Below are positions 9,905 to 32,840 of a stretch of DNA of 64,000 bases, piece by piece. Every line of letters begins with the position of its first letter. Position 1 is the first letter of the stretch. This stretch comes from Candidatus Acidiferrales bacterium (GTDB taxonomy: Bacteria > Acidobacteriota > Terriglobia > Acidiferrales > UBA7541). The stretch covers positions 9,904 to 73,903 of the forward strand of contig DATGHO010000038.1 of assembly GCA_035307965.1 (NCBI GenBank), in the 5' to 3' direction. The position numbers were made by a program, and so were the translations under genes. Under the pieces are notes generated by a model, which was not told the origin of the DNA, ran no database searches, and was given only the letters and a program-made list of their open reading frames with translations.

Positions 9905-10777
9905 ATGCCAAGCTCCTGGAAAGGCTTCCTCACTTTTGGGCTGATTTCGCTGCCGATTCGCCTCTCTCCGGCGGCGCGCACCGAGCGCATCAGCTTCAAT
10001 CAGCTTCACAAAGAGTGCCACACGCGACTCAAGCAGCCGCTTTTCTGCCCAACGTGCAACCGCATGGTCGAACGCTCGGAAGTCGAGAAGGGCTACGAAT
10101 ACGAAAAAGGCCAATACGTTCTTTTCACCGAAGAAGAACTGAAAAATGTCGAGCCGGAGTCGGCGCGCAGCATGGAAATTCTGGAATTCGTGAAGCTTGC
10201 GGAGATCGATCCGGTTTATTTCGACGCCTCCTACTACATCGCTCCGGAAGAGGGCGGCGAAAAAGCCTATCGCCTGCTCGCTGAAGCCATGCAGCAAGCC
10301 GGCTACGCGGGCATCGCCAAAGTCAGCATGCACAATCGCGAGAACATCGTCATCATCCGCCCGCGCGAGAACGGCCTCACGCTCCACACCATGTTTTATT
10401 CCAACGAAATTCGCTCCTCCGAGTACGGCGACACGCGCAAAGCCGAAATCAAAGAGCAGGAGCGCACCCTCGCCCGCCAGTTAATCGAAAACCTCTCTGC
10501 CACTTTTGAACCGGACAAGTATCGCGACACGTATCAGGAAAGTTTGCGTTCGCTGGTTGAAGCAAAGACCGCGGGAAGGGAAGTCACCGCCGTTCAACAC
10601 CATGCTGTCGCACCAGTTATCGACTTGATGGCTGCCTTGAAGAAAAGCCTCGAGCAGAAGCCTGCCGCACCGAAAAAGCAACCGGTTCGCGTCGAGTCTC
10701 GCCAGAAAGAAGCCTCCGGAGCGCAGAGCGAGTCAACCGGCCCTCGCATCGTAAAGTCCCGCCGCAAAGCCGGCTAA
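9905..10777 (+). CDS. ku: Ku protein (bacterial non-homologous end joining)
   Basis: The N-terminus MPSSWKGFLTFGLISLPIRL and the core ...YFDASYYIAPE... are typical of bacterial Ku. The C-terminal tail is basic. Confidence 0.9.
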   Translation: MPSSWKGFLTFGLISLPIRLSPAARTERISFNQLHKECHTRLKQPLFCPTCNRMVERSEVEKGYEYEKGQYVLFTEEELKNVEPESARSMEILEFVKLAEIDPVYFDASYYIAPEEGGEKAYRLLAEAMQQAGYAGIAKVSMHNRENIVIIRPRENGLTLHTMFYSNEIRSSEYGDTRKAEIKEQERTLARQLIENLSATFEPDKYRDTYQESLRSLVEAKTAGREVTAVQHHAVAPVIDLMAALKKSLEQKPAAPKKQPVRVESRQKEASGAQSESTGPRIVKSRRKAG

Positions 10778-27446: not shown

Positions 27447-29006
27447 TCAATTTGAGGTCTGCTGCTCGGCGTATGGCTTGGCGGCGGGTGAAGTTGCCGG
27501 AGCGTGAAGGCCGCGGGCGAAACCTTGCCTGATCAAACTGAATATTGTGCGACGATTTTCAAAGATTGTTTTCACCCACGCGAAGCGGCCCATCTGCGGG
27601 AAATAAATTCCGCGGAAGCATAGACGAGAGATCAAAATATTGATGCGGCAGCCCAAAGGCTTGTCATTGATGGACTGCACGGCCTTTTCGATGGCCTGCG
27701 GACTGTAGCAGTTGAGCCAGCCCTTTCGAACTTCTTCGTGCGCTTCATCGATGCTCATCTTCAGCGGCGTGTGCGCCATGGCAAAAGGTATGAACTCCTG
27801 CCAATGCTTGACGCGCGTAAGGCGTCCGGCGGCTTCCAGACGTTTGTAGAGCGGCGTGGAAGGCAGCGGCGTGAGCAGGCCAAAAATCGGGAGGCCAGGC
27901 GGCCAGGTGCGGATCTGGTTCAAAGTGCGTTCGGCGACGCCGACTGTGTCATTGTCCATGCCGAAAATAAAAGACGTGATGGCATAGACGTTGCGCTGGG
28001 CGAGGCGTTCGAGAACGGCGGCGTATTCCGACGGCTTGTTGAAGCCTTTTTTCACATCGGCGAGATTGGCGGGGTCGATCGATTCCATGCCGATGAAAAT
28101 CCATTTGCCTCCGGAAGCGGCAATCAAATCCACAAGCTCTTCGTCGCGCAACAGATTGGCGCTGATTTGCGCGACCCAATGAACCTGGGCGTTTGCGGCG
28201 ATGATGTCGCGCAGCAGGGATTTGGTGCGTTTGATGTTGATGGCGAAATTATCGTCGATAAAAAAGACGGCGATCTGGCCGCCTTCTTTGCGGGCGCGCG
28301 CTTTGAGCAGGAGGAGTTCGTTGACCACGCTTTCATTGGAGCGAAAGCGGATGGAGTCGCCGAAAAATCCGGTGACGGTGCAGAATTCGCATCCGTAAGG
28401 GCAGCCGCGCCCGGACTCCATGGGAATAATGCGAAAACTTCCCCAGCCATCGCCGATGCGCTTCAGGAACGGATGCAATACCTTCGGCAATAAATTGAAT
28501 TGCTTAAGTTTGATAGTGTCCCAGGGAATTTTCGGATAGGGCTGAAGCGAAGGTTTGCGTTCCTGGCCAAAGGCGTCAACTGGCGCGTAAACCTCTTTGA
28601 GCGCGCCACGGGCGGCGTCTTCGACAATTTTGGGCCAAGTCTCATCGGCTTCGCCGAGCGCGACAGCGTCGGCGTGCTGCGGGCCGCCATCTTTTCCGAG
28701 AGCCTCGTCGGCCATTTCGGTGACGTGAGGACCGCCCATGACGACTTTCGCTCCGGCGGCGCGGACAGCGTCAGCCATACGATAAGCCTTGGCGATCATT
28801 CTGGTCATGGCGCCGATGCCAACGAGGCCGATGTTGTGCTCGCGGACGTAGCGCGCGATGCTTTGCTCGTTCATGGGCTGCGCGTTGCCGTCGATCAGCA
28901 CCACTTCGTGGCCGGGAGGAGTTAATGCTTGTAAGAGGAACATCCAAAGGTGGGGCATAAAATTGCGAGTGACGCCGTTGTCCGGGTTGTACAGTAAGAT
29001 TTTCAT
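27447..29006 (-). CDS. B12-binding-domain radical SAM protein (class B rSAM)
   Basis: The N-terminal Rossmann-like cobalamin domain begins MKILLYNP... and includes GIGAMT. The CxxxCxxC motif is CPYGCEFC. The start was set at the ATG at 29006. Confidence 0.85.
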   Translation of the reverse strand: MKILLYNPDNGVTRNFMPHLWMFLLQALTPPGHEVVLIDGNAQPMNEQSIARYVREHNIGLVGIGAMTRMIAKAYRMADAVRAAGAKVVMGGPHVTEMADEALGKDGGPQHADAVALGEADETWPKIVEDAARGALKEVYAPVDAFGQERKPSLQPYPKIPWDTIKLKQFNLLPKVLHPFLKRIGDGWGSFRIIPMESGRGCPYGCEFCTVTGFFGDSIRFRSNESVVNELLLLKARARKEGGQIAVFFIDDNFAINIKRTKSLLRDIIAANAQVHWVAQISANLLRDEELVDLIAASGGKWIFIGMESIDPANLADVKKGFNKPSEYAAVLERLAQRNVYAITSFIFGMDNDTVGVAERTLNQIRTWPPGLPIFGLLTPLPSTPLYKRLEAAGRLTRVKHWQEFIPFAMAHTPLKMSIDEAHEEVRKGWLNCYSPQAIEKAVQSINDKPLGCRINILISRLCFRGIYFPQMGRFAWVKTIFENRRTIFSLIRQGFARGLHAPATSPAAKPYAEQQTSN

Positions 29007-29170
29007 CGCGGTCCTTAGGGTGGAGCAAAGTGAAACGCAGACGGCGGCAATTATGCCACGGTTAATGATAATCAGAAAATAAAATCGAATTTGCCGTATG
29101 CTGGCGGGCAATTGATTCGATGCGCTGCTGCGGTAAAGGTTTGCCCTGTGCGGGACGAGCGGGCTAGCAG

Positions 29171-29261
29171 AAATCCGAATGACGGGGCACATCAAAAGCC
29201 CCAGATCTTCGCGAAGGGCGCCGCGACAACGAGGGACGGGGACGCGAAGTCTTGCGCTATA
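29171..29261 (+). repeat. REP-like element (R1 3'-flank fragment plus R2 copy)
   Basis: The fragment aaatccgaatgac is followed by aaagccccagatcttcgc...gcgaagtcttgcgctata. The TAG stop of the DUF488 gene (29259-29257) lies inside the element. Confidence 0.7.
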
Positions 29262-29865
29262 CGGACTTTGCCGACGCGGTTTGGTGCGCGGCGCGCTTCC
29301 TGGCGTAGGCGCGAGTGGCGCGATTGGGCGGGTAGGTGACGCGTTTGCCGCGAACGCGGGCGAAAGGCGTGAGCTTGTGAAGATTGCGGCGCGCGGGGGT
29401 CATGATGTGCTCAACGGCATGGCCGCGAACGGTGAGCGCGTCGGCGATGAGCGAGCGATGGCAGCGCCACGGAACGGCCTCGGCGCACATGGTAGCGCAG
29501 AGCTTGGTTTTTGCTAATTTCTCCAGGCGGGCGAGGGCGGCGGCGAATTCGGGAGTTTGCATGTAATCGGCGAAGCCGCGAAAGCTGGAATTCTGCCAGC
29601 CAGTGTTGACGGAATCGGCGCGGGCGCGGCGGAGGCCGCCGAGTTTCGGCAGATGCGTGTAGGCGATGTGCGCGCGTCGCACGGAGGCCGCGAGGGCTTC
29701 GCGGTTGAATTGCGGATTGTGGCGCGAGCGCGGGATGGTGCGAACGTCAACGAGGCACTTGACGCCGTGGGATTTGAGCAGCGCTAGAAATTCGGCGATG
29801 GAATGATTGGAATGGCCGACGGTGAAGATGGGCGGCTTGGCGCGAGGGGCGCGTTTGCGAGTCAC
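29257..29865 (-). CDS. DUF488 family protein (long form)
   Basis: The motifs IFTVGHSN...FLALLK...LVDVR and CAEAVPWRCHRSLIAD are present. The GTG start overlaps the AlkA-like stop (GTGA). Confidence 0.8.
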   Translation of the reverse strand: MTRKRAPRAKPPIFTVGHSNHSIAEFLALLKSHGVKCLVDVRTIPRSRHNPQFNREALAASVRRAHIAYTHLPKLGGLRRARADSVNTGWQNSSFRGFADYMQTPEFAAALARLEKLAKTKLCATMCAEAVPWRCHRSLIADALTVRGHAVEHIMTPARRNLHKLTPFARVRGKRVTYPPNRATRAYARKRAAHQTASAKSV

Positions 29866-30878
29866 AGCAATCCCCGGCTGCGCAGCCCATCGAGCAGGAA
29901 ATGAAAATAGATGAGGCCGGCATAGTTTTTCCAGGGCGCGAGAAGTTTGCGCGTTTTGGCATAGTCGGGGCGAACGCGAAGGCGAAGGTGTTTCTGTAAA
30001 TTGTTCCAGCCGCCGACGTCGTCTCCCGGAAAAATATTGAGGCGGCCCATGCCGCGGAGAAGCGCGTATTCGGCGGACCAGCGGCCGATGCCGCGAATTG
30101 CGGTGAAACTTTCGAGGGCGGTTGCGTCGTCGAGTTCGCGGAATGATTCAAGATTCAACTCGCCGGAAGCGACTGTGCGGCTCAAGTCGAGAATGGCGCG
30201 CTCTTTGTTGCGGCTGTAGCCGAGCGCACGCAGGGAGCCAGTAGAAAGATTGGCGAGGTCCGCAGGGGAAGGGCAGGCCCGCGCTGGCGCGCCCGCATTC
30301 GCTGAGGGAGTTGCAGGGGCAGAGCGGCCGAAGCTCTGTACAAGACGGTTGAGGAGCATAATGCCGACGTTCAGGGAAACCTGCTGGCACGAGATGGCGT
30401 TGAGAAGAGCTTCAAAGATGGTGGGATAGCGGGGAGGTTTGAGTCCGGTGAAGTCAGCGATGAGCTCGCGCAGGGGTTTTTGACTGGCCGCGAACGAATA
30501 AAAGCCGCGAAGGTCGCTGGCGGCGCCGAGCATGCGTTCGAGGGTGGCGCGCAGATAATGATGTAGTTCACGTGTTGCATGAGGGACACGCGCGGTGACG
30601 CTCAGACACGGGCGCGCGACAGAACCGGTTTGCTCGACGGCGACTTCGGCGGTCAGGGCGCCGGTTTTTCCATCGAGCAGAAGTACGCGGCGATAAACAT
30701 GGCCGTCCCAGCGATCGAGGATGTTTTCGGGGCGGCGCCGTAAAGCCCAGACAGTGAGGTCCAGGCGAAAGGGCGGGAGCGGATGAATGGTAAATGAAAG
30801 CGATGGACGCGCAGCTGCGGACGCAACGCGACGAGGAGAAGAGCGTTTTGCTGAGAGATTTCGTGAGCCCTGTGGCAT
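29862..30878 (-). CDS. DNA-3-methyladenine glycosylase II family protein (AlkA-like, HhH-GPD)
   Basis: The HhH-GPD region is ...LRALGYSRNKERAILDL...IRGIGRWSAEYALLRGMGRLNIFPGDDVG. The start was set at the ATG at 30878. The 168-codon upstream extension in the track was rejected. Confidence 0.8.
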   Translation of the reverse strand: MPQGSRNLSAKRSSPRRVASAAARPSLSFTIHPLPPFRLDLTVWALRRRPENILDRWDGHVYRRVLLLDGKTGALTAEVAVEQTGSVARPCLSVTARVPHATRELHHYLRATLERMLGAASDLRGFYSFAASQKPLRELIADFTGLKPPRYPTIFEALLNAISCQQVSLNVGIMLLNRLVQSFGRSAPATPSANAGAPARACPSPADLANLSTGSLRALGYSRNKERAILDLSRTVASGELNLESFRELDDATALESFTAIRGIGRWSAEYALLRGMGRLNIFPGDDVGGWNNLQKHLRLRVRPDYAKTRKLLAPWKNYAGLIYFHFLLDGLRSRGLL

Positions 30879-30972
30879 GTTGTTATCATCTATCGTAAAT
30901 GCGGAAAGATGCAAACGTAGCCGGTGAGCGGCGGTGGCGGCGCCGCAAGTTTTCACAACGAAGGGAGTCACG

Positions 30973-31695
30973 GTGGGCACAATTCCAATGAAGCTGAAGC
31001 AGCGCAGGGAGATTGCCGAAGGAACGATGGGATTCTGGCTGGAGAAGCCTGCGGGATTTGAGTTTAAGGCCGGACAGGCGATGGAAGTGAAGCTGAATGA
31101 TCCACCGGAAACGGATGGGGAGGGGAATTCGCGGGCGTTCTCGATCGCTAGCGCGCCGCACGAGCCGGACATTATGTTCGCGACGCGCATGCGGGATACG
31201 GCGATGAAGCGCAGTTTGAAGAAAATCCCGCTGGGCACGGAATTGGAAGTCGATGGCCCATGGGGCGATCTGAAATTGCACAGCAGGGAGCAACGCCCGG
31301 CGGTGTTTCTTGCGGGAGGGATTGGCATTACGCCGTTCCGCAGCATGGCGCTGGACGCGGCGCAAAACAAATTGGCGCACAAAATCTGGCTCTTCTATTC
31401 CAATCGCCGTCCCGAGGATGCCGCTTTTCTCGACGATTTGATGCGCGCGGAAAAAGAGAATCCCAACTTCAAATTAGTTGCCACCATGACCGAGATGGAT
31501 AAATCGAAGCGGGAGTGGAAAGGGAAGCGCGGATTCGTCGACAAAGCGATGCTCTCGGAAGCAGTGGGTGACTTGAGCGCGCCGATTTTTTACATCGCCG
31601 GGCCGGCGGGCATGCTGAACGCCATGCGCAAGATGCTGCTCGATGCAGGTGTGAACGAGGATGATATTCGCGCCGAGGAGTTCGCCGGATATTAG
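30973..31695 (+). CDS. Ferredoxin-NADP reductase-type FAD/NAD(P)-binding oxidoreductase
   Basis: The FAD motif is RAFSIAS and the NAD(P) motif is FLAGGIGITPF. The start is uncertain (GTG 30973 after AAGGGAG, ATG 30988 or GTG 30934). Confidence 0.8.
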   Translation: MGTIPMKLKQRREIAEGTMGFWLEKPAGFEFKAGQAMEVKLNDPPETDGEGNSRAFSIASAPHEPDIMFATRMRDTAMKRSLKKIPLGTELEVDGPWGDLKLHSREQRPAVFLAGGIGITPFRSMALDAAQNKLAHKIWLFYSNRRPEDAAFLDDLMRAEKENPNFKLVATMTEMDKSKREWKGKRGFVDKAMLSEAVGDLSAPIFYIAGPAGMLNAMRKMLLDAGVNEDDIRAEEFAGY

Positions 31696-31696
31696 A
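31664..31696 (+). repeat. 33-bp direct repeat, copy 1 (3' end of the oxidoreductase CDS including its TAG)
   Basis: The sequence atattcgcgccgaggagttcgccggatattaga is identical to 32134..32166. Confidence 0.95.
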
Positions 31697-31709
31697 GTGA
31701 GGTCGGAAG

Positions 31710-32087
31710 CTATGCTTTGTATTCTCGCTGCCTGGCTTCGTCGAGTTGACCGAGAATTTCTCTTGCCCGGGGAAGGTCCGCTTTGAGAACCGAAACTGCA
31801 AAATGAATCAGCGGGCGGCGTTTCACAAATGCAGAGAAGATCGTGAACTTCGCGAGCATCAAGAACCAAGATGCGGGCTTCGTTTCGAGAGATTCCTTGC
31901 AACTCGAGGGGATGCCGGCAGATTCAAGCGCGGCGAGAATTTGTTCCAGATGTTTCCTCTCGCTGCCTTCCCATGCTGCGACTACAGGGATGGCAAGGGC
32001 TTCTTGTGAAGAGACCAGAGGGATTTGGCAACCACTGCACACTAACACTCCCTGGCGGTACTCCGCTTTGCAGAGTGGGCAGTACAT
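31710..32087 (-). CDS. Small zinc-ribbon plus DUF2007-like protein (125 aa)
   Basis: The N-terminus is MYCPLCKAEYRQGVLVCSGCQIPL (CxxC-x11-CxxC), followed by an alpha/beta domain with ...ESAGIPS... The start was set at the ATG at 32087. Confidence 0.65.
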   Translation of the reverse strand: MYCPLCKAEYRQGVLVCSGCQIPLVSSQEALAIPVVAAWEGSERKHLEQILAALESAGIPSSCKESLETKPASWFLMLAKFTIFSAFVKRRPLIHFAVSVLKADLPRAREILGQLDEARQREYKA

Positions 32088-32133
32088 GATGGAGTTAGAG
32101 TCTATCCGAAAATAACATGCCGAAGGGAAGCGA

Positions 32134-32166
32134 ATATTCGCGCCGAGGAGTTCGCCGGATATTAGA
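32134..32166 (+). repeat. 33-bp direct repeat, copy 2
   Basis: It is identical to 31664..31696. The spacing between copy starts is 470 bp. Confidence 0.95.
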
Positions 32167-32204
32167 ATGGGGAGCGGGCGGGCTAAGGCGCCAGTGGCAC
32201 AGAG

Positions 32205-32840
32205 TTGGAGAGGTGGATTTTGGCGGAGATTACGGCGCTGTTTTTCGATATTGGCGGGGTGCTGCTGACGAACGGCTGGGACCGCACCGAGCGCATGGCC
32301 GCGGCGAAGAAATTCAATCTCGAGTGGAACGATTTCGAGGAGCGGCACGAACTGGTGCTGCACGCTTTCGAAGTGGGCGACATGGAGCTCGAGGAATATC
32401 TGGACCGCGTGATTTTCTATTGCCGGCGCGATTTCACGCGGAAGGAATTCACGGATTTCATCAAGGCGCAGTCGCAGGCTTTGCCAGGAACATTGGATTT
32501 ACTCGCGCGCATCGCGGCGGGGCAACAATACCTGATCAGCTCGCTGAATAATGAATCGCGCGAGATGAACGCGTATCGTATCGAGACATTTCATTTGCGG
32601 GATTATTTCGATGTATTTTTGACTTCGTGCTATCTGGGCGTGCGCAAGCCGGACGCAGCGATTTATCAGGCGGCGTTGAGCATCACCCAGAGGAAAGGTG
32701 AAGAGTGCGTGTTCGTGGATGACCGCGCGTTGAATTTGGAATGCGCGCGGGAATTGGGGATGCGCACGATTCACTTCAAAGACGCCGCGCAACTCGAGAG
32801 AGAGCTGAAGGAACTGAAAGTGGCCATTGCGCCAGCGTAA
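32205..32840 (+). CDS. HAD-superfamily hydrolase (subfamily IA)
   Basis: Motif I is FFDIGGVLL. Later motifs include LNNESRE and VFVDDRALN. The start is uncertain (TTG 32205 or TTG 32220). Confidence 0.8.
   Translation: MERWILAEITALFFDIGGVLLTNGWDRTERMAAAKKFNLEWNDFEERHELVLHAFEVGDMELEEYLDRVIFYCRRDFTRKEFTDFIKAQSQALPGTLDLLARIAAGQQYLISSLNNESREMNAYRIETFHLRDYFDVFLTSCYLGVRKPDAAIYQAALSITQRKGEECVFVDDRALNLECARELGMRTIHFKDAAQLERELKELKVAIAPA

What the first reader, a model, noticed from the sequence alone, without database searches (positions are those of the whole stretch)
31664..32166. Single-gene insertion flanked by a perfect 33-bp direct duplication of a gene's 3' end
The last 33 nt of the ferredoxin-reductase-type gene, including its TAG (atattcgcgccgaggagttcgccggatattaga, 31664..31696), recur perfectly at 32134..32166. 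The 437 bp between the copies carry exactly one gene on the opposite strand, a 125-aa zinc-ribbon/DUF2007-like protein (31710..32087). The geometry is that of an insertion into the 3' end of the oxidoreductase gene, with duplication of the target so that the host ORF stays intact. A 33-bp duplication is long for a transposase target-site duplication. It resembles an att-core duplication or a recombination-mediated cassette capture, yet no integrase, transposase or inverted termini are visible.
Basis: seen in the sequence. Interest (0 to 1): 0.6.

Follow-up and report, generated by a model that had tools for sequence, protein, structure and literature searches.

The report
Gene insertion with 33-bp target duplication
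A 437-base piece of DNA carrying one small zinc-ribbon gene was inserted right after the stop codon of a reductase gene in this soil acidobacterium, and the last 33 bases of that gene were copied on the far side; this is a real example of the rare, mechanistically unexplained 'insertion with long target duplication', not a jumping gene with its own enzyme.

Summary
The 33-mer at 31664-31696 recurs perfectly at 32134-32166. These are its only two copies in the 3.68-Mb MAG (Acidobacteriota, 'Acidiferrales'-type). Between them lie 437 bp with one gene, 31710-32087 (-).

Relatives show the empty site. The closest is a soil contig about 90% identical on both flanks. It has one 33-mer (31/33), then the sequence that follows copy 2, then the HAD gene. 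At least six species of the genus look the same. So this is an insertion in this lineage with a 33-bp target duplication that keeps the reductase ORF intact.

It is not an att or integrase cassette. It has no recombinase, no terminal inverted repeats, no second copy, and no shared ends with other inserts.

The same footprint occurs at other loci of this genome, with unrelated inserts and different repeat lengths (39 and 56 nt, with a 31-nt mosaic case). One has an exact empty site in a 94-95% identical relative.

Orthologues of the small gene (56-64% identity) in four other lineages all lie 1.85 kb away, between AlkA and DUF488.

This matches the published 'insertion with long target duplication' (Furuta 2010), so far reported for restriction-modification genes. 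The likely cause is host break-repair or template-switch synthesis; Ku and LigD are present.

The scan noted similar footprints in other genomes (e1-4006973, e1-689914).

The parts
29862..29865 (-). Site A, empty in this genome: the AlkA-like stop and the DUF488 start overlap (GTGA). In four other lineages the orthologue of the small gene sits exactly here.
30934..31695 (+). FNR-type oxidoreductase gene (NAD_binding_1 / FAD_binding_6). This is the target gene; it is intact, and its last 10 codons plus stop lie in repeat copy 1. Public gene calls start 13 codons later (240 aa).
31664..31696 (+). Direct repeat copy 1 (33 nt): the functional 3' end of the FNR gene, its TAG, and one further base.
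31697..32133 (.). Inserted DNA, 437 bp, GC 0.53 against 0.58 for the window. It is unique in the genome, has no terminal inverted repeats, and is absent from the closest relatives.
31710..32087 (-). Small gene, 125 aa: an N-terminal CxxC...CxxC zinc ribbon followed by a beta-alpha-beta-beta-alpha domain (DUF2007/PII-like, weak). It is convergent with FNR, with 13 nt between the two stop codons.
32088..32109 (-). About 22 nt upstream of the small gene's ATG, conserved with the site-A orthologues. It includes a -10-like TAGACT box (32099-32104). This is the only flank that travels with the ORF.
32130..32141 (.). A 12-nt perfect palindrome, GCGA|ATATTCGC, created across the right junction (insert end / repeat copy 2).
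32134..32166 (+). Direct repeat copy 2 (33 nt), non-coding. It is followed by ATGGGG..., the ancestral sequence downstream of the FNR stop in relatives.
32205..32840 (+). HAD-family hydrolase gene. In empty-site relatives it starts 16-92 nt after the FNR stop. Here it is pushed 509 nt away by the insert.
9935..10462 (+). One of two Ku genes of the genome (C38:19838-20365). With three LigD polymerase-domain genes elsewhere, it shows that an end-joining apparatus is present.

Best explanation
In the recent ancestry of this MAG, a 437-bp piece of DNA was inserted immediately after the stop codon of the FNR-type gene. It carries a complete small gene with about 22 nt of its own upstream region. 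The event was recombinase-independent and illegitimate, and it also re-copied the last 33 nt of the target, so both sides of the insert carry that sequence. This is a case of 'insertion with long target duplication'. The duplication is why the reductase ORF survived, which is probably why this event was kept. The most likely way such a footprint arises is DNA synthesis during repair of a break or restart of a fork. Either a staggered break is filled in on both ends and a loose fragment is ligated between them (Ku/LigD end joining), or a nascent strand switches to another template, copies the small gene, and returns 33 nt behind its point of departure. The small gene itself is an old resident of this chromosomal neighbourhood in the genus, normally lying between AlkA and DUF488, 1.85 kb away. 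It probably reached its present place from there or from a relative's homologous region. Shown: the insertion, the duplication, the empty sites, the absence of mobility functions, and the recurrence of the footprint with unrelated inserts. Inferred: the enzymology and the source of the fragment.
For: Empty site:
- The soil contig Ga0556618_0038283 (L159) is about 90% identical to the window over 28633-31712 and 88.6% over 32134-32273.
- It has one copy of the 33-mer (31/33), followed directly by ATGGGGCGGGCG..., the flank of copy 2. It has no small gene at either site.
- G013, G024, G017, G002, G021 and G019 have FNR stop, TAGAAT(G/T)G, then the HAD start 16-92 nt later.

Not a mobile element:
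- The 33-mer and the insert are unique in the genome.
- There are no inverted repeats at the insert ends.
- The only ORF has no mobility domain.
- The nearest tyrosine recombinase is 33 kb away.

A general process:
- At C21 77888/78083 a 156-bp non-coding insert lies between perfect 39-nt copies of a gene's 3' end. G019, 94-95% identical on both flanks, has the exact empty site with one 39-mer.
- At C3 183040/183630 a single 149-aa gene lies between copies (56 nt perfect, about 90 nt imperfect) of a conserved upstream motif. That motif is single-copy in 7 relatives.
- At C21 88646/88835 the new DNA is a mosaic of about 101 nt REP-like sequence plus a 31-nt copy of sequence lying 57 nt away, joined at a CAG microhomology. 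This pattern points to templated synthesis.
- Repeat lengths differ (31, 33, 39, 56) and insert ends share nothing.

Other support:
- Another clade (G004, G007) carries an older, decayed copy of the FNR 3' end (11 nt exact, about 20/28) at the right edge of a different insert at this same site.
- The genome has 2 Ku and 3 LigD-polymerase genes.
- Capture of DNA fragments in chromosomal breaks by bacterial NHEJ has been shown experimentally (PMC6379672).
- The footprint class is in print: 46-47-bp and longer duplications, some overlapping a gene's 3' end, with no mobility gene (PMC2853133).
Against: - No donor sequence for the 437 bp was found, so junction microhomologies cannot be read and the repair pathway stays inferred.
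- Published NHEJ capture experiments do not report duplications of tens of bases (one search found no mention of duplication or fill-in).
- A break staggered by 33-56 nt is not a known common lesion.
- The small gene landed only 1.85 kb from where its orthologues sit. A random capture model does not explain this, yet the two closest relatives (L159, G019) lack the gene at both sites.
- Reads could not be inspected. Integration in the chromosome, as opposed to a 470-bp circle threaded into the contig by the assembler, therefore rests on the assembly alone.
Confidence: 0.55

Rival explanations
1. Campbell-type integration. A small circle carrying the gene plus a copy of the FNR 3' end integrated by RecA-dependent single crossover within the 33-bp homology. 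This gave two repeat copies, and the unit can pop out and re-enter the same way, making a recombinase-less homology cassette.
For: The verified flanking repeats (33, 39, 56 nt), like the 31-nt mosaic repeat, are at or above the roughly 25-30 bp needed for efficient RecA pairing (the threshold is my own knowledge). The C3 repeat has a perfect 56-nt core with mismatches on both sides, as hybrid repeats would. Furuta 2010 propose release and re-invasion using such repeats.
Against: It does not explain how a circle holding both the gene and the target's 3' end arose in the first place. No second site or second genome carries this unit. Sharply bounded direct repeats grade continuously down to 18-25 nt. 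The mosaic case, with non-adjacent copies, does not fit a crossover.
Confidence: 0.13
2. Local reshuffling by tandem duplication and loss. An ancestor had DUF488-small-AlkA-FNR-HAD. The segment small-AlkA-FNR was duplicated in tandem. The first small copy and the second AlkA-FNR copy were then deleted, and the 33-mer is the stub of the lost second FNR.
For: All four orthologues of the small gene lie between AlkA and DUF488 on the same strand, 1.85 kb from the present site. The 46 nt upstream of the gene is about as long as the AlkA-small spacer in those genomes. The model predicts exactly the order FNR-small-(FNR 3' stub)-HAD.
Against: It needs three events, one of them a near-precise removal that restores the ancestral overlapping stop/start at site A. 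The closest relatives (L159, G019) have no small gene at site A. The flanks of the insert show no similarity to the AlkA 3' end or the DUF488 5' end. It cannot explain the 39-nt and 56-nt cases, whose inserts have no nearby source.
Confidence: 0.1
3. Site-specific integration. The 33-mer is an att core and the small-gene unit is the remnant of, or is mobilised in trans by, an integrase-bearing element.
For: The repeat length is typical of att cores, and the target is the 3' end of a gene, as for many integrative elements. The genome has 11 tyrosine-recombinase hits.
Against: There is no integrase within 33 kb, no second copy of the 33-mer or of the unit, and no relative with the same unit at this site. 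Unrelated inserts show the same footprint with other sequences and lengths. The true att case in this genome (tRNA-Asp, 51 nt in three copies) has its integrase adjacent.
Confidence: 0.04
4. Assembly effect. The chromosome has the empty site, and the assembler threaded a separate molecule or strain variant sharing the 33-mer into the contig.
For: The source is a metagenome-assembled genome of 41 contigs. Reads could not be examined. No other assembly holds this small protein (one contig).
Against: Both junction sequences must exist in reads for any assembler to emit them, so at the least a molecule joining 33-mer to insert to 33-mer exists. A decayed duplicate of the FNR 3' end at the same site in an independent assembly (G004) cannot be an assembly loop. 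Several such loci lie in well-assembled contigs of 117-192 kb.
Confidence: 0.07

Closest known systems
Insertion with long target duplication (Nobusato et al. 2000, not read; Furuta et al. 2010, PMC2853133, read)
   Same: An insert of gene size lies between direct repeats longer than 30 bp. The repeats align to a single copy in a related genome and are unique in the genome. There is no integrase, transposase or other mobile element. In published cases the repeat can overlap the 3' end of a gene (46 bp, 15 bp of it in HI0105), and repeat lengths vary from case to case.
   Different: Published cases carry restriction-modification genes, and the authors suspect the cargo's own DNA cutting as the cause. 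Here the cargo is a small zinc-ribbon protein, and two sister events carry no gene at all. This points to a host process rather than a cargo-encoded one. The host is an uncultured acidobacterium, not a known naturally competent pathogen.
NHEJ capture of DNA fragments in chromosomal breaks (Dupuy et al. 2019, Sinorhizobium meliloti, PMC6379672)
   Same: Insertion of unrelated DNA is recombinase- and homology-independent. The host encodes several Ku and LigD proteins.
   Different: The experiments used I-SceI breaks with 4-nt overhangs and do not report flanking duplications of tens of bases. No experiment exists for this organism.
att-site duplication by tyrosine integrases (for example the tRNA-Asp element of this same genome, C2 35.6-39.9 kb)
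   Same: Direct repeats of 30-50 nt that rebuild the 3' end of the target gene.
   Different: The integrase is adjacent and the target is a tRNA. At the FNR site there is no recombinase, and the footprint recurs with unrelated sequences.
IS1634-type insertion sequences with long, variable target duplications (IS4 family; mentioned in PMC2266710)
   Same: Variable and unusually long direct repeats of the target.
   Different: Those are transposase-bearing elements with defined inverted ends and many copies. The inserts here have neither.

Membership tests
Insertion with long target duplication (Furuta 2010 criteria) | Insert present in one genome and absent in a related genome with collinear flanks | tested here: met
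   L159 is about 90% identical on both sides and lacks the 437 bp. Six species of the genus also lack it.
Insertion with long target duplication (Furuta 2010 criteria) | Flanking direct repeats longer than 30 bp, both aligning to one copy in the empty genome | tested here: met
   33/33 between the two copies. There is a single copy in L159 (31/33) and in G019 (31/33).
Insertion with long target duplication (Furuta 2010 criteria) | No mobility gene or other mobile element in or next to the insert; repeat not a dispersed repeat | tested here: met
   The single ORF has no mobility domain. The 33-mer and the insert are unique. The nearest integrase is 33 kb away.
Insertion with long target duplication (Furuta 2010 criteria) | Cargo is a restriction-modification system (a screening criterion of the paper, not a mechanistic requirement) | tested here: not met
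   The cargo is a 125-aa zinc-ribbon plus DUF2007-like protein.
Integrase-mediated integrative element (att core) | Tyrosine or serine recombinase encoded in or beside the element | tested here: not met
   ORF list and Pfam scan of the neighbourhood. PF00589 hits in the genome, the nearest at C38:75441.
Integrase-mediated integrative element (att core) | Same element found at the same att sequence in other genomes, or as further copies | tested here: not met
   No other copy in 401 genomes of the family, in metagenome contigs, or in the protein collection.
DDE transposon / IS / MITE | Terminal inverted repeats, and a short target duplication of fixed length | tested here: not met
   No inverted repeat at the insert ends. 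The duplication is 33 nt here and 31, 39 and 56 nt at the sister loci.
DDE transposon / IS / MITE | Multiple copies in the genome | tested here: not met
   Single copy.
DUF2007 (PF09413) for the small protein | Pfam score at or above the gathering threshold | tested here: not met
   14.3 bits, E 0.046, cut-off 25.7. Four of 12 homologues hit, best E 0.0027.
DUF2007 (PF09413) for the small protein | Ferredoxin-like beta-alpha-beta fold like the solved family member | tested here: inconclusive
   The AF2 model has pLDDT 85.5 with a beta-alpha-beta-beta-alpha domain. The best PDB match is 2hfv at probability 0.91 but E 0.07 and TM 0.37-0.47.

The most novel reading that the evidence does not exclude
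This acidobacterial lineage, and perhaps soil Acidobacteriota at large, has a host-encoded way of pasting arbitrary DNA, whether genes or non-coding pieces, into the chromosome with target duplications of 20-60 nt or more. The resulting repeat-flanked units can then leave and re-enter by plain homologous recombination. That would make 'insertion with long target duplication' a general route of gene gain independent of any mobile-element enzyme, and would explain the unexplained footprints published for restriction-modification genes.
Probability: 0.12. Interest if true: 0.75.

Novelty: new member of a known kind. Interest (0 to 1): 0.4.

Why it matters
Insertions with long target duplications have been in print since 2000, but only for restriction-modification genes. 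Their mechanism has never been shown, and it was attributed to the cargo's own nuclease. Here the same footprint surrounds a harmless small gene and, elsewhere in the same genome, gene-less DNA. That moves suspicion from the cargo to the host's repair or replication machinery. It also offers several clean filled/empty site pairs on which a mechanism can be tested. Finally, it shows how a gene can be added inside the end of a coding sequence without damaging it, and how a small gene can change place within a conserved neighbourhood.

Tried and rejected
1. Imported tract hypothesis. G000 and G019 drop to 71-87% identity over about 30150-31650, ending at the insertion site. I therefore considered a one-step, homology-facilitated import of a foreign AlkA-FNR-small tract. 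This was rejected: contig L159 shares G000's allele across the tract (about 90%) and has the empty site. G019 is therefore the recombinant, and the tract is unrelated to the insertion.
2. Search for a donor of the 437 bp, and of the 156-, 158- and 534-bp sister inserts, in the genome. None was found, apart from a 71% paralogue of the 149-aa gene and REP-like pieces.
3. Homology between the insert's outer flanks (13 nt and about 24 nt) and the surroundings of the site-A orthologues, or the inserts of other species at site B. Nothing was found beyond the 22 nt upstream of the ATG.
4. Shared terminal motifs among the four inserts. None.
5. dif/Xer-like dyad symmetry in the 33-mer, checked by eye. 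There are only 6/7-nt terminal arms, and the sequence is simply the conserved coding end DIRAEEFAGY*.
6. Sigma-70 promoter and intrinsic terminator scans of 31500-32300. Nothing found.
7. Read mapping.
8. Partial census against 293 kb of G019. About 55 indels were seen; clean ones have junction overlaps of 3-12 nt and one has 39 nt. The polarity of the short-overlap events was not resolved, since they may be deletions in G019.

Full report
**Observation.** The window reads ATATTCGCGCCGAGGAGTTCGCCGGATATTAGA at 31664-31696 and again, without a mismatch, at 32134-32166.
- Copy 1 is the end of the FNR-type ORF 30934-31695 (NAD_binding_1, E 2e-21), including its TAG.
- The 437 bp between the copies hold one credible gene, 31710-32087 on the minus strand.
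- The window is C38:9904-73903 of a 41-contig, 3.68-Mb, 87%-complete MAG.
- Allowing up to three mismatches, the 33-mer has only these two copies in the MAG. The insert has no other copy.
- Titles of related records and names given by public sources place the organism in Acidobacteriota ('Candidatus Acidiferrales'/'Acidoferrales').

**Empty sites.** The order DUF488-AlkA-FNR-HAD-zwf is conserved through the genus.
- In G013, G024, G017, G002, G021 and G019 the FNR stop is followed by TAGAAT(G/T)G, and the HAD start lies 16-92 nt further on.
- The best comparator came from a search with the FNR protein. It is JGI contig Ga0556618_0038283 (L159), 89.7% identical to the window over 28633-31712 and 88.6% over 32134-32273.
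- L159 has one 33-mer (31/33), directly followed by ATGGGGCGGGCG..., the sequence that follows copy 2 in the window.
- So copy 2 with its right flank is the ancestral end of the locus, copy 1 with its left flank is the ancestral gene, and the 437 bp plus one 33-mer are extra in this lineage.

**A false lead.** G000 and G019 are 90-96% identical on both sides but only 71-87% over about 30150-31650. That tract ends at the insertion site, which suggested a single import of foreign DNA. L159 shares G000's allele throughout that tract and has the empty site. G019 is therefore the recombinant, and the tract has nothing to do with the insertion.

**The cargo.** The 125-aa protein has an invariant CPLC...C..C zinc ribbon and a second domain predicted with confidence (pLDDT 85.5) as beta-alpha-beta-beta-alpha.
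- Pfam DUF2007 is below threshold.
- The best solved-structure match is 2hfv (probability 0.91, E 0.07).
- Its function is unknown. A small regulatory or ligand-binding protein is a guess from the fold.
- Homologues occur in 23 of 401 genomes of the family, often as neighbouring paralogues.
- The four closest homologues (56-64% identity, mutually equidistant) are in G021, G005, G244 and soil contig Ga0126371_10000024.
- All four lie between the AlkA 3' end and the DUF488 5' end, on the same strand as here, while their FNR/HAD junction is empty where the contig reaches it (G021 and the soil contig).
- In this MAG that 'site A' is empty, with the usual overlapping stop/start. It is also empty in L159 and G019.
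- Filled site-A alleles are scattered over the genus tree.
- Similarity between this copy and the site-A copies covers the ORF and about 22 nt upstream, including a TAnACT box, and nothing more.
- The gene is thus an old, patchily kept resident of this neighbourhood that here sits 1.85 kb from its usual place. A random landing within 2 kb of that place has a chance of about one in a thousand by my arithmetic. That suggests either a local source or tethering of incoming homologous DNA, but no trace of either was found.

**Not a mobile element.**
- There is no recombinase or transposase in or near the insert. The nearest tyrosine recombinase is 33 kb away.
- There are no terminal inverted repeats.
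- There is no second copy.
- For contrast, the same genome holds a textbook att case. The 3' end of tRNA-Asp, 51 nt, is present three times at C2 35588/38133/39907, with an integrase gene directly beside the tRNA.

**The same footprint elsewhere.** I scanned the whole MAG for exact direct repeats within 6 kb and kept those with sharp borders. This turned up further cases.
- C21 77888/78083: 156 bp of non-coding DNA lies between perfect 39-nt copies of the last 12 codons of a gene. G019, 94-95% identical on both flanks, has the exact empty site with one identical 39-mer, and more distant species also lack the insert.
- C3 183040/183630: one 149-aa secreted-protein gene lies between copies (56 nt perfect, about 90 nt imperfect) of a conserved motif upstream of an ABC-ATPase gene. 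Seven relatives have one motif and no such gene.
- C21 88646/88835: compared with G019, the extra DNA is about 101 nt of REP-like sequence followed by a 31-nt copy of sequence that lies 57 nt to the left, joined at a CAG microhomology. Three outgroups have a single copy.
- At the FNR site itself, the G004/G007 clade carries a decayed second copy of the FNR 3' end (GGATATTAGAA exact, about 20/28 overall) at the right edge of a different, REP-like insert. It is followed by the native spacer.
- The inserts share no sequence or termini, and the repeat lengths differ.
- A partial comparison with 293 kb of G019 shows many indels, with junction overlaps from 3 to 39 nt.

**Mechanism.**
- A fixed-length, enzyme-specific footprint is excluded by the variety of lengths and cargos.
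- The mosaic case shows that nearby sequence can be copied into the new joint. That is the mark of templated synthesis rather than of a simple cut.
- The genome has two Ku and three LigD-polymerase genes. Bacterial NHEJ has been shown to capture foreign fragments in chromosomal breaks (PMC6379672).
- I therefore favour repair or restart synthesis: fill-in of a staggered break with ligation of a captured fragment, or a template switch that returns 33 nt behind its departure point.
- The 12-nt palindrome GCGA|ATATTCGC at the right junction would fit a snap-back step, but it rests on 4 nt only.
- This part is inference. No donor sequence is available to read junction microhomologies.
- The rivals are RecA crossover of a circle, tandem duplication with losses, an att site, and an assembler loop. 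They are weighed in the Rival explanations section.

**What is known.** Furuta et al. 2010 (PMC2853133), following Nobusato et al. 2000 (not read), define 'insertion with long target duplication'.
- Gene-sized inserts are flanked by direct repeats longer than 30 bp that match one copy in a related genome.
- The repeats are unique in the genome, with no other mobile element present.
- Examples include 46-bp repeats overlapping a gene's 3' end.
- They found it for restriction-modification genes of all types, mostly in naturally competent bacteria. They suspected DNA breakage by the cargo and had no mechanism.
- The present case meets their structural criteria but carries a different cargo, and sister events carry none. 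That argues for a host process.
- Earlier notes of this scan describe similar footprints in other genomes. e1-4006973 reports 26-160-bp duplications around small HNH/RHH units in gut Oscillospiraceae; its later check named the two papers. e1-689914 reports a REP-type insert with a 20-24-bp duplication in another soil acidobacterium. I did not test those.

**Likely consequence (inferred).** In empty-site relatives FNR and HAD-zwf-pgl are 16-92 nt apart and probably co-transcribed. Here a convergent gene and 509 nt separate them, which may uncouple the reductase from the pentose-phosphate genes.

**Verdict.** The att/cassette mechanism is not supported. This is a new member of a known but unexplained class. 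Its value lies mainly in several clean filled/empty pairs in one lineage that has end-joining genes.

**Limits.** No donor was found, and the census was only partial.

Noticed in passing
G000 contig C21 77888-78121 (outside the window; L075 2389-2622): A 156-bp non-coding insert lies between perfect 39-nt copies of the last 12 codons of gene 78081-79082 (-), and the stop codon is rebuilt at the junction. G019 has the exact empty site with one identical 39-mer. Part of the insert (about nt 102-146) resembles a short element found at many loci in relatives.
   Followed up: yes
G000 contig C3 183040-183685 (L073 2541-3186): A single 149-aa secreted-protein gene (183169-183618, -) lies between copies (56 nt perfect, about 90 nt imperfect) of a conserved upstream motif, TTGCGCGGATTGTGAA...TGTCAATACGCAA, of an ABC-ATPase gene. 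Seven relatives have one motif and no such gene. A 71% DNA paralogue lies at C7:8798-9073.
   Followed up: yes
G000 contig C21 88646-88865 (L076): A mosaic insertion upstream of an aminotransferase gene. It consists of about 101 nt of REP-like DNA plus a 31-nt copy of the gene's start region lying 57 nt away, joined at a CAG microhomology. Outgroups have a 14-nt spacer.
   Followed up: yes
G000 contig C38 136707-137782 (outside the window; L074): A 301-aa gene is flanked by identical 35-nt terminator-like hairpins. The gene is present at this place in some species of the genus and absent in others. The hairpin may belong to a repeat family.
   Followed up: partly
G000 contig C2 35556-39960 (L077 2057-6460): The 3' end of tRNA-Asp (51 nt) is present three times, 2.5 and 1.8 kb apart, with a tyrosine integrase gene directly after the tRNA. 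This is a classical integrative element, possibly two in tandem.
   Followed up: partly
window 30150-31650 compared with G019 (L102, L105) and L159: G019 carries a divergent allele (71-87% identity) of the AlkA 5' part and the whole FNR gene, while its flanks are 90-96% identical. This is a homologous-recombination import in G019, with contig breaks inside FNR in that assembly.
   Followed up: yes
L022 (G004), L025 (G007), L021 (G008), L024 (G015), between FNR and HAD: These four species have 218-641 bp of REP/MITE-like repeats right after the FNR stop. G004 keeps a decayed second copy of the FNR 3' end at the right edge, and G007 keeps a shorter trace. The site is a repeated target of insertions.
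   Followed up: partly
L017 (G009), between FNR and HAD: A 520-bp spacer is made of about 2.5 tandem copies of a unit of roughly 150 bp.
   Followed up: no
L022 (G004): The AlkA-like gene is missing in G004, and DUF488 lies next to FNR.
   Followed up: no
G000 contig C6 21694 and 22897; loci L032, L043 and others: Paralogues of the small zinc-ribbon protein often lie in twos or threes near each other. Two in this genome share an identical 36-nt start (MFCPVCKYEFR).
   Followed up: no
window 32088-32109 (-) and the same place in L004, L005, L027, L046: There is no Shine-Dalgarno sequence upstream of the small gene. A conserved TAnACT box ends 11 nt before the ATG, which suggests a leaderless or nearly leaderless transcript.
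   Followed up: no
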